A stretch of 29,675 nucleotides of DNA from Nitrospirota bacterium. Its GTDB lineage: Bacteria; Nitrospirota; CAKKRA01; 9FT-COMBO-42-15. Shown here piece after piece: positions 23,636 through 23,962 of the stretch. Below the pieces are notes generated by a model. It made no database searches. It saw only the letters and a program-made list of their open reading frames with translations, and was not told the origin of the DNA. The stretch lies in assembly GCA_016214425.1 (NCBI GenBank), contig JACRON010000146.1, positions 1-29,675 on the forward strand, written 5' to 3'. The position numbers and the translations under genes were made by a program. Position 1 is the stretch's first letter. Every line of letters begins with the position of its first letter.

Positions 23636-23962
23636 ATGAAGATGGTCTGGGCGATCATAAGGCCTGAGAGGCTTAAGGAGGTTACTGACACCCTGAAAGA
23701 CGCTGGTTTCCCATCACTGACAGAGTTCAGTGTGAGGGGCCGCGGAAAGCAGAAGGGGATTGTAATCGGCGGCATGAAGTATGAAAAGCTGCCAAAAGAG
23801 CTCCTTACACTGGTATGCAGGGATGAGGATGTAGAGAAGATACTTGATATTATTGTGAAGACAGGCAGGACAGGGAATATCGGCGATGGGAAGGTCTTTG
23901 TATTAAATGTTGAGGATGCAATAACCATCAGGACAGGCCAGCGGGGCATTGAGGCATTGTAA
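23636..23962 (+). CDS. PII-family nitrogen regulator, NifI1-type
   Basis: MKMVWAIIRPE, GRGKQKG, RTGNIGDGKVFV, IRTG. Short T-loop IVIGGMKYEKLPK. SD GAGGAGG before ATG 23636. Confidence 0.9.
   Translation: MKMVWAIIRPERLKEVTDTLKDAGFPSLTEFSVRGRGKQKGIVIGGMKYEKLPKELLTLVCRDEDVEKILDIIVKTGRTGNIGDGKVFVLNVEDAITIRTGQRGIEAL

What the first reader, a model, noticed from the sequence alone, without database searches (positions are those of the whole stretch)
23636..23962. Solitary NifI1-type PII wedged between urtE and ureA
Seen: T-loop GRGKQKGIVIGGMKYEKLPK, lacking the GlnB/GlnK RQKGxxExYRGAEY loop, and no second PII next to it. Established: this short loop is typical of NifI1, which forms a heteromer with NifI2 to switch off nitrogenase; cyanobacterial PII has been reported to interact with UrtE. 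Inference: a homomeric NifI1-like PII could gate the urea transporter ATPase, urease, or the GAF domain of the adjacent activator according to 2-oxoglutarate.
Basis: partly seen in the sequence, partly recalled or inferred. Interest (0 to 1): 0.68.

Follow-up and report, generated by a model that had tools for sequence, protein, structure and literature searches.

The report
PII sensor built into urea operon
A small nitrogen-status sensor protein (PII family), closest to the NifI1 proteins that switch off nitrogenase, sits between the urea-importer and urease genes here and in at least 20 other loci from several phyla, which suggests an uncharacterised brake on urea use.

Summary
Window 23636-23962 (+) encodes a 108-aa PII protein (Pfam P-II, 92 bits) with the quoted short T-loop. 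It lies 20 nt after urtE and 15 nt before ureA, has its own Shine-Dalgarno sequence, and has no second PII beside it.

It is not GlnB/GlnK. Its T-loop is 4 residues shorter, and the NCBIfam GlnB/GlnK models score 66 bits against cut-offs of 181 and 202. In maximum-likelihood trees it falls in a well-supported clade of its own. That clade groups with true nif-operon NifI1 but lies outside it, with or without the T-loop columns.

In 21 distinct loci the PII directly follows urtE. The loci come from MAGs labelled Nitrospirae, Clostridia, Omnitrophica, Brevinematia and from Ca. Haliotispira. ureA follows in 20 of them. In the one rearranged locus (ureABC-urtABCDE-PII) the PII stays with urtE.

This genome does carry nifH and NifI2 elsewhere, and its kin have their own NifI1 beside NifI2. 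Three other carriers of the urea PII, one a complete genome, have neither nifH nor NifI2, so the protein does not depend on NifI2.

A related short-loop clade sits in cyanate ABC-transporter/cyanase operons.

Most likely it is a homotrimeric ATP/2-oxoglutarate sensor that restrains urea uptake through UrtE, or else urease itself. The target is inferred, not shown. I found no paper describing it.

The parts
23636..23962 (+). 108-aa PII protein of the urea-operon clade, grouping with NifI1
   Evidence: Translation. Pfam P-II 92.4 bits. About 100 clusters of 105-108-aa homologues at 56-81% identity. Careful trees.
23738..23797 (+). Codons 35-54: short T-loop GRGKQKGIVIGGMKYEKLPK, with Q39 and K54 (= K58 of GlnB)
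   Evidence: The loop is 4 residues shorter than GlnB/GlnK and the same length as NifI1. R34, M47 and K51 are specific to the clade.
23623..23631 (+). Shine-Dalgarno AAGAGGAGG of the PII gene
   Evidence: Sequence read. Similar GGAGG motifs precede the PII start in most other loci.
22923..23615 (+). urtE, an ATP-binding subunit of the urea ABC importer; the favoured target
   Evidence: TIGR03410 at 325.5 bits, over the 285.8 cut-off. It directly precedes the PII in 21 of 21 loci.
22163..22936 (+). urtD, the second ATP-binding subunit
   Evidence: TIGR03411 at 361 bits, over cut-off.
18710..21965 (+). urtA (18710-19957), urtB (19960-20859) and urtC (20883-21965)
   Evidence: TIGR03407 UrtA at 604 bits. 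Two BPD_transp_2 permeases.
23978..26381 (+). ureA (23978-24280), ureB (24293-24661) and ureC (about 24648-26381): the urease structural genes and the alternative target
   Evidence: Urease_gamma, Urease_beta, and Urease_alpha plus Amidohydro_1.
26450..29126 (+). ureE, ureF, ureG and ureD accessory genes
   Evidence: UreE_N/UreE_C, UreF, cobW (the UreG family) and UreD.
18574..18589 (+). Sigma-54-type promoter-like element TGGCATGGTTTTAGCA, 137 nt before urtA
   Evidence: Sequence read and regex scan. This is a consensus match only. Similar elements lie upstream of urtA in L005, L006, L102 and L105.
16874..18433 (+). GAF / sigma-54 / HTH activator of NifA type, directly upstream of the operon
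   Evidence: TIGR01817 at 585.8 bits, over the 528.85 cut-off. It is the only over-cut-off match in this 71%-complete genome. An orthologue (52% identity over 511 aa) sits in the same place in L107.

Best explanation
The gene encodes a working PII signal protein of a distinct, so far undescribed subfamily. The subfamily is closest to NifI1 and travels as a fixed part of the urtABCDE-PII-ureABC(EFGD) urea-utilisation operon. It most likely forms a homotrimer that binds ATP/ADP and 2-oxoglutarate (2-OG) in the usual clefts between subunits.

Proposed mechanism:
- When nitrogen is sufficient (low 2-OG), it binds and blocks the urea importer. The likely contact is the ATPase subunit UrtE, whose gene it always follows.
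- This stops urea influx and wasteful ammonia release.
- When nitrogen is limiting, MgATP plus 2-OG rearrange the short T-loop and release the block.

Shown here: family membership, the separate clade, the invariant gene position, independence from NifI2 and nitrogenase, and conservation of the ligand-binding residues. Inferred: the homotrimer, ligand binding, the identity of the target and the direction of regulation.
For: (1) Identity. Pfam P-II matches at 92 bits. An AlphaFold2 model with mean pLDDT 83 has the beta-alpha-beta-beta-alpha-beta order of a PII protein and a flexible loop at residues 36-53.

(2) Separate clade. A careful IQ-TREE of 64 rows gives: urea group 98/94, NifI1 99/96, NifI2 100/99, GlnB/GlnK 93/92, and urea plus NifI1 together 96/81. 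Dropping the T-loop columns gives the same result (97/88, 98/96, 97/81).

(3) Synteny. The PII directly follows urtE in 21 of 21 distinct loci and precedes ureA in 20 of 21. Gaps are mostly 12-25 nt, with the gene's own Shine-Dalgarno sequence. In the one rearranged locus, L172 (ureABC-urtABCDE-PII, then the operon ends), the PII stays with urtE.

(4) Independence from nif. G001, G002 and the complete genome of Ca. Haliotispira prima (G004) have no NifH above 35 bits and no long-loop NifI2.

(5) Ligand residues. R9, T29, G35-G41 including Q39, K54 (= K58), the T79-G80..G83-D-G-K86 B-loop, F88 and R99 (= R103) are invariant or nearly so in the clade and shared with NifI1. NifI1,2 bind MgATP and 2-OG with the canonical PII geometry (Maslac et al., bioRxiv 10.64898/2025.12.07.692841).

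(6) Precedent. Cyanobacterial PII binds UrtE, and a PII deletion mutant over-consumes urea and excretes ammonium (Watzer et al. 2019, PMC6603209).

(7) Parallel. A third short-loop PII clade sits in cyanate/nitrate-type ABC transporter plus cyanase operons (L024, L100, L101). The shared neighbour type is an ABC importer, while urease and cyanase are unrelated enzymes.

(8) Distribution. The operon is a rare accessory in this lineage. None of the 5 closest genomes has a real urease or this PII, and it was not found in 400 other genomes sampled from the phylum. This fits a self-contained module.
Against: - No experiment or expression data bear on this protein.
- Gene order does not separate UrtE from urease as the target in 20 of 21 loci. 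The argument from the rearranged locus rests on one case.
- UrtE (the branched-chain amino acid / LivF type) and the cyanate transporter ATPase belong to different ABC families, so a shared docking mode is not guaranteed.
- In Synechocystis the PII-UrtE contact appeared independent of the T-loop, so the distinctive short T-loop here may serve another partner.
- Urease subunits were also enriched in those PII pull-downs.
- 8 of the 16 'urea' rows in the trees were assigned by similarity, not by a verified context.
Confidence: 0.5

Rival explanations
1. The target is urease itself. The PII trimer binds UreABC when 2-OG is low and blocks or sequesters it, as NifI1,2 sequester nitrogenase, and MgATP plus 2-OG release it.
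For: The PII gene abuts ureA in 20 of 21 loci. Its closest relatives, NifI1, inhibit an ammonia-producing enzyme directly. Urease subunits co-purified with cyanobacterial PII on urea-grown cells.
Against: In L172 the ure genes moved upstream and the PII stayed after urtE. In the cyanate operons the enzyme (cyanase) is unrelated to urease, while an ABC importer is common to both. In NifI1,2 the long NifI2 T-loop makes most of the contacts with the enzyme and NifI1 loops add little; no such loop exists here.
Confidence: 0.22
2. The PII works on transcription. It binds the GAF domain of the adjacent NifA-type sigma-54 activator and tunes urt-ure expression to 2-OG, as GlnB/GlnK modulate NifA in some Proteobacteria.
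For: A NifA-type activator with a GAF domain lies directly upstream, and a sigma-54-like element precedes urtA. An orthologous activator (52% identity, GAF domain included) is in the same position in L107.
Against: Only 2 of the 11 loci with enough upstream sequence carry such an activator. This cannot be the conserved function of the clade. At most it is an added role here.
Confidence: 0.08
3. It is simply a second NifI1 that forms heterotrimers with the genome's NifI2 and acts on nitrogenase. In this reading its place in the urea operon only serves to co-express it when urea is used.
For: This genome has nifH (the C184 contig end) and a NifI2 (the C51 contig start). The NifI1 expected between them lies in an assembly gap. 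The T-loop length is that of NifI1.
Against: Kin genomes G006 and G009 have a true 105-aa NifI1 directly before a NifI2 that is 90-95% identical to this genome's fragment. Three carriers of the urea PII have no nifH and no NifI2. The clade lies outside NifI1, with charge swaps at positions 30 and 51.
Confidence: 0.04

Closest known systems
NifI1 of nif operons (e.g. chain H of PDB 9p1x, 105 aa, which I take to be the Methanosarcina acetivorans NifDK-NifI1,2 cryo-EM structure; M. infernus and M. maripaludis NifI1)
   Same: PII fold. Same short T-loop length. Ungapped 105-residue alignment at 87.7 bits. 50-61% identity to bacterial and archaeal NifI1. Shared ATP/2-OG pocket residues. Groups with it in trees.
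   Different: It lies outside the NifI1 clade. It is never next to nifH or nifI2, and it occurs in genomes with no nitrogenase. Clade-specific residues are E30, R34, M47, K51 and C61, plus a 3-residue C-terminal tail, where NifI1 has K/R30, F/Y34, V/I47, E/N51 and V61. NifI1 works as a 2:1 heterotrimer with NifI2, whose long loop grips nitrogenase.
GlnK with AmtB (glnK-amtB operons)
   Same: A PII gene co-transcribed with the nitrogen importer it is thought to plug when 2-OG is low. The regulatory logic is the same.
   Different: The GlnK T-loop is 4 residues longer. The GlnB/GlnK equivalog models score 66 bits against cut-offs of 181 and 202. It is a separate clade. The GlnK target is a channel, not an ABC ATPase. 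This genome has its own amtB-glnK-glnB set on C232.
Cyanobacterial PII (GlnB) acting on UrtE and NrtC/NrtD (Watzer et al. 2019, PMC6603209)
   Same: The same proposed target system: the urea ABC importer, with contact through UrtE. The physiological purpose is also the same: to prevent uncontrolled urea hydrolysis and ammonium loss.
   Different: There a single global, canonical PII encoded elsewhere does the job. Here a dedicated short-loop paralogue is encoded inside the operon and moves with it.
Short-loop PII of cyanate operons (seen here: L024, L100, L101)
   Same: 108 aa with the same T-loop length, placed beside an ABC importer ATPase and the enzyme that releases ammonia from the imported compound.
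   Different: It is a separate clade (100/100 support) at 52% identity, with a different T-loop sequence. The transporter is of the nitrate/cyanate type and the enzyme is cyanase. The gene order varies (ATPase-PII-cynS or ATPase-cynS-PII).

Membership tests
PII superfamily (Pfam PF00543) | Full-length match to the P-II profile above the gathering score | tested here: met
   92.4 bits against a cut-off of 25, residues 1-101 of 102 model positions.
PII superfamily (Pfam PF00543) | B-loop TGxxGDGKIF and T-loop base GxGxQKG, with Q39 and the K58 equivalent | tested here: met
   T79-G80-N-I-G83-D-G-K86-V-F88, G35-R-G-K-Q39-K-G41 and K54 are present and invariant in the clade.
GlnB/GlnK | Score above the NCBIfam equivalog cut-offs | tested here: not met
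   NF007946 scores 66.7 against 181. NF008111 scores 66.3 against 202.
GlnB/GlnK | T-loop of canonical length with the ...GHTExYRGAEY... stretch | tested here: not met
   The loop is 4 residues shorter and the motif is absent. Alignments to GlnK in the PDB need two 2-residue gaps.
GlnB/GlnK | Falls within the GlnB/GlnK clade | tested here: not met
   The GlnB/GlnK rows form one side of a branch (93/92; 98/90 without the T-loop columns) that excludes it.
NifI1 | Short T-loop, about 16 residues (36-51) | tested here: met
   Same length as 18 NifI1 with verified nif context.
NifI1 | Encoded in a nif cluster directly before nifI2, usually after nifH | tested here: not met
   It sits between urtE and ureA here and after urtE in 21 of 21 loci. 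There is no PII or nif gene beside it.
NifI1 | Falls within the NifI1 clade | tested here: not met
   The NifI1 rows form a group of their own (99/96) that excludes the urea group (98/94). The two groups join at 96/81. The tree is unrooted.
NifI1 | Forms a 2:1 heterotrimer with NifI2 and inhibits NifDK | not testable with these tools
   Indirect evidence only: three carrier genomes have no NifI2 and no NifH.
NifI2 | Long T-loop insertion (proteins of about 117-145 aa) | tested here: not met
   108 aa with no insertion. The NifI2 clade is separate at 100/99.

The most novel reading that the evidence does not exclude
Short-loop, NifI1-related PII proteins may form a family of portable, operon-embedded brakes. 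Each would be a homotrimer dedicated to one alternative-nitrogen module (urea: urt-ure; cyanate: cyn transporter plus cyanase). It would dock on the module's ABC importer ATPase when 2-oxoglutarate is low, and it would move by horizontal transfer together with its target. NifI1 would then be the nitrogenase-specialised branch of a wider group of 'one PII per nitrogen source' regulators.
Probability: 0.4. Interest if true: 0.72.

Novelty: new variant of a known kind. Interest (0 to 1): 0.6.

Why it matters
PII proteins are the central carbon/nitrogen sensors of prokaryotes. Their well-defined branches are few: GlnB/GlnK, NifI1 and NifI2, plus a handful of PII-like groups (from my own knowledge of the field).

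A further branch with an invariant, easily read genomic partner gives specialists a clean new case. It would show how the PII scaffold is re-targeted, and here the proposed target is an ABC importer, for which no PII complex structure exists according to Watzer et al. 2019.

It would also show that control of urea uptake by PII is not confined to cyanobacteria. That control is known there only for the global PII. In anaerobes from several phyla it would be hard-wired into the operon.

The hypothesis is directly testable with a 108-aa protein and a soluble ATPase subunit. Practically, it would matter for predicting when uncultured anaerobes hydrolyse urea and release ammonia.

Tried and rejected
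- Complex prediction of three PII copies with UrtE, using alignments A4 and A3, gave 'no answer' (ipSAE 0.01 in both runs; controls were not run). It counts neither for nor against binding.
Only 2 of the 80 loci it returned were urea-type, so I give no estimate of how many species carry the gene.
- My degenerate DNA pattern for the metagenome scan also admitted V-S-G-R-G. As a result, 64 of the 80 loci were an unrelated 112-aa GlnK-type family, and only 10 were useful.
- Four literature searches found no description of a PII inside urt-ure operons: NifI1 + urease; P-II + urease + urtABCDE; PII superfamily + NifI + gene neighbourhood; urease + glnB + urt + operon + PII-like. The library lacks most subscription journals, so absence from the literature is not proven.
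- I considered and rejected the ideas that the ORF is a chance frame or a GlnB/GlnK.
- I looked by eye for a NifA-type TGT-N10-ACA site upstream of urtA and saw none. I did not pursue this.
- I did not run a mirror-tree or co-evolution test between the PII and Urt or Ure proteins. All of these genes are inherited together in one operon, so the test could not discriminate between them.

Full report
**What is there**

Window 23636-23962 (+) is a 108-codon open frame. It matches Pfam P-II over its whole length (92.4 bits, E 2.5e-26).

The gene is packed into a co-directional array:
- a NifA-type GAF/sigma-54 activator (16874-18433; TIGR01817 at 585.8 bits, over its cut-off);
- a sigma-54-like element, TGGCATGGTTTTAGCA, at 18574-18589;
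- urtA, urtB, urtC, urtD and urtE (18710-23615; UrtA, UrtD and UrtE over their NCBIfam equivalog cut-offs);
- the PII gene;
- ureA, ureB, ureC, ureE, ureF, ureG and ureD (23978-29126).

The PII gene has its own AAGAGGAGG Shine-Dalgarno sequence. It starts 20 nt after the urtE stop and ends 15 nt before the ureA start. No second PII gene lies in the window.

**What kind of PII it is**

- The NCBIfam GlnB and GlnK equivalog models score only 66 bits against cut-offs of 181 and 202.
- In alignment with this genome's own canonical GlnB/GlnK (contig C232, next to amtB), the T-loop is 4 residues shorter. It has the same length as in true NifI1.
- Against solved structures it aligns without a gap over 105 residues to chain H of PDB 9p1x, the 105-aa PII chain, which I take to be NifI1 of the M. 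acetivorans nitrogenase-NifI1,2 complex. Alignments to GlnK structures need two 2-residue gaps in the loop.
- The large-database search returned about 100 clusters of 105-108-aa proteins at 56-81% identity. Below these came 105-aa proteins at 55-61%. One of the latter, from Thermocrinis albus, is a genuine NifI1: it is followed by a 135-aa NifI2, then nifT and nifB.

**Phylogeny**

I took PII sequences from every locus fetched and labelled them by verified neighbours only:
- urtE before and ureA after;
- nifH before and a second PII after;
- amtB adjacent.

A first quick tree of 127 rows and then a careful IQ-TREE of 64 rows agree. For the smaller set I removed near-duplicate NifI1 and NifI2 rows and three long-branch rows (L050_1268, L045_2745, L033_3981), and I sampled 20 GlnB/GlnK rows at random.

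Each group is one side of a branch. The 'Without T-loop' column is the run with the T-loop columns removed, so that the trait itself cannot drive the result.

| Group | Support, all columns | Without T-loop |
|---|---|---|
| Urea group | 98/94 | 97/88 |
| NifI1 | 99/96 | 98/96 |
| NifI2 | 100/99 | 99/97 |
| Cyanate-operon group | 100/100 | 100/99 |
| GlnB/GlnK | 93/92 | 98/90 |
| Urea + NifI1 together | 96/81 | 97/81 |

Caveats:
- The alignment has only 90-112 columns.
- The tree is unrooted, so 'sister' holds only if the root lies outside these two groups.
- 8 of the 16 urea rows were database hits without a checked context. All 8 rows with a checked context fall inside the group.

The protein is therefore NifI1-like, but it is not a member of the nif-operon NifI1 clade.

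**Conserved gene position**

Every member whose surroundings I could read lies directly after urtE.
- In 20 of 21 distinct loci ureA follows: the window, L005, L006, L008, L010, L012, L013, L102, L105, L106, L107, and the metagenome loci L124, L133, L145, L148, L155, L160, L176, L183 and L187.
- The source records name Nitrospirae, Clostridia, Omnitrophica, Brevinematia and Candidatus Haliotispira prima (Spirochaetota).
- Gaps are mostly 12-25 nt on the urtE side and -4 to 36 nt on the ureA side.
- The twenty-first locus, L172, is rearranged to ureABC-urtABCDE-PII. The operon then ends and the next gene is on the other strand. There the PII stayed with urtE.

**Relation to nitrogen fixation**

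- Contig C51 begins inside a long-loop NifI2, followed by a ferredoxin and nifB.
- Contig C184 ends in the first 25 codons of nifH.
- The NifI1 expected between them falls in an assembly gap of this 71%-complete genome.
- In a same-genus genome (G006) and a same-family genome (G009), a true 105-aa NifI1 stands directly before a NifI2 that is 90-95% identical to this genome's fragment. The NifI2 here almost certainly has its own partner.

More telling, three other carriers of the urea PII have no NifH match above 35 bits and no long-loop PII at all:
- G001, a Clostridia MAG;
- G002, labelled Bacteroidales;
- G004, the complete 3.25-Mb genome of Ca. Haliotispira prima. Its only other PII is a canonical 112-aa one.

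The clade therefore works without NifI2 and without nitrogenase.

**A parallel case**

In Nitrospirae bacterium GWB2_47_37 (L024), a third short-loop PII (108 aa, 52% identical) lies between two things:
- the ATPase of a nitrate/cyanate-type ABC importer (NMT1_2 binding protein, NtrB-type permease, TIGR01184 ATPase at 324 bits);
- cyanase.

The representative of that cluster (P0124) lies in ATPase-cynS-PII arrays on two further contigs. The logic matches the urea case: an importer for an alternative nitrogen source, a private PII, and the enzyme that frees ammonia.

**Ligand site and clade-specific residues**

The residues that hold MgATP and 2-oxoglutarate in PII proteins are retained and invariant in the clade, and they are shared with NifI1. 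They are R9, T29, G35-R-G-K-Q39-K-G41, K54 (the K58 equivalent), the T79-G80..G83-D-G-K86 B-loop, F88 and R99 (the R103 equivalent). Which residues contact the ligands is my own knowledge of PII structures.

NifI1,2 were recently shown to bind MgATP and 2-OG in the canonical geometry. They release nitrogenase through a T-loop switch (Maslac et al., bioRxiv 10.64898/2025.12.07.692841; Kashyap et al., PMC12439982).

What sets the urea clade apart from NifI1:

| Position | Urea clade | NifI1 |
|---|---|---|
| 30 | E | K/R |
| 34 | R | F/Y |
| 47 | M | V/I |
| 51 | K | E/N |
| 61 | C | V |
| C-terminus | 3 extra residues | absent |

Two of these are charge reversals at the base and tip of the T-loop, which fits a different docking partner. 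An AlphaFold2 model (mean pLDDT 83) has the secondary-structure order of a PII protein, with a low-confidence loop at residues 36-53.

**How it most likely works**

All well-studied PII partnerships in nitrogen acquisition share one logic: at low 2-OG the PII blocks the machine, and MgATP plus 2-OG release it. This holds for GlnK on AmtB, NifI1,2 on nitrogenase, and cyanobacterial PII on NrtC/NrtD and UrtE.

In Synechocystis, PII binds UrtE but not UrtD. A PII-less mutant over-consumes urea and excretes ammonium (Watzer et al. 2019, PMC6603209).

I therefore favour a homotrimeric sensor that restrains the Urt importer through UrtE (confidence about 0.5). Three observations support this:
- the invariant position directly after urtE;
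- the L172 rearrangement;
- the fact that an ABC importer, not the enzyme, is what the urea and cyanate operons have in common.

The main rival is direct inhibition of urease (about 0.2). It fits the NifI analogy and the adjacency to ureA.

Control of the NifA-type activator through its GAF domain can only be a local extra. An orthologous activator (52% identity) is present in just 2 of the 11 loci with readable upstream sequence.

None of these interactions has been tested.

**Distribution**

The module is rare in this lineage.
- Of the five other genomes in the class, none has a real urease or this PII.
- It was not found in the 400 other genomes sampled from the phylum.
- Its PII is 60-81% identical to those of other phyla.

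This points to horizontal spread of the whole operon with the PII inside it. That is inference, not shown.

**Novelty**

Sources label these proteins only 'P-II family nitrogen regulator' or 'PII 1'. Four full-text searches found no description of a PII embedded in urt-ure operons. The searched library omits most subscription journals.

I did not find the clade reported on other DNA in the scan's index.

I rate it a new variant of a known kind: a distinct PII subfamily with a clear, testable partner system.

Noticed in passing
L024:3003-6825 (Nitrospirae bacterium GWB2_47_37); L100:111-1730; L101:229-1012: A separate short-loop PII clade (108 aa) is embedded in cyanate/nitrate-type ABC transporter plus cyanase (cynS) operons. 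The order is ATPase-PII-cynS or ATPase-cynS-PII.
   Followed up: partly
Own genome: G000 C184 end (L093:1498-1572) and C51 start (L004:2-343): nifH begins at the very end of contig C184, and contig C51 starts inside a long-loop NifI2 followed by a ferredoxin and nifB. The organism is probably a diazotroph whose nifH-nifI1-nifI2 stretch spans an assembly gap.
   Followed up: partly
window 16874-18433; L107:191-1843: The only over-cut-off NifA-type activator found in this 71%-complete genome sits next to the urea operon, not next to nif genes. An orthologue (52% identity, GAF domain included) holds the same place in L107. It may be a urea-operon regulator descended from NifA.
   Followed up: partly
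window 29295-29310: A perfect sigma-54 consensus, TGGCACGGATATTGCT, lies at the start of the NapC/NirT-type cytochrome (nrfH-like) frame after ureD. One match is about what chance gives in this window (mean 1.48 in shuffles).
   Followed up: no
L013:8969-9286 (Clostridia MAG): A second, very divergent 105-aa PII with an even shorter loop (GFGQQTTRPENYLFLPK) follows ureC in an operon that already has the urtE-PII-ureA gene. amtB-glnK lie further downstream.
   Followed up: no
L155:7879-9516: After ureD come a porin-like 407-aa protein and a degenerate PII-like ORF (121 aa, B-loop GDREIF instead of GDGKIF), then an amino-acid-permease-like gene.
   Followed up: no
L006:1-2029 (Nitrospirae MAG): A NifH-family gene is directly followed by an Oxidored_nitro gene with no NifI pair between them. 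The pair lies divergently next to the urt-PII-ure operon. It may be a nitrogenase-like (NFL) system and not nitrogenase.
   Followed up: no
window 396-770, 2499-3905, 4875-5387: An IS200-type transposase, an RHS-repeat protein and an integrase-core (rve) fragment lie at the start of the window, upstream of pilMNOPQ-aroC-aroK-aroB. These are mobile-element traces about 12 kb from the urea operon.
   Followed up: no
L110-L189 (64 of 80 loci): A large, uniform family of 112-aa PII proteins with VSGRGKQKGIPLQWRVGEYRV in the loop dominates sediment metagenome hits to my degenerate pattern. I did not examine their context.
   Followed up: no
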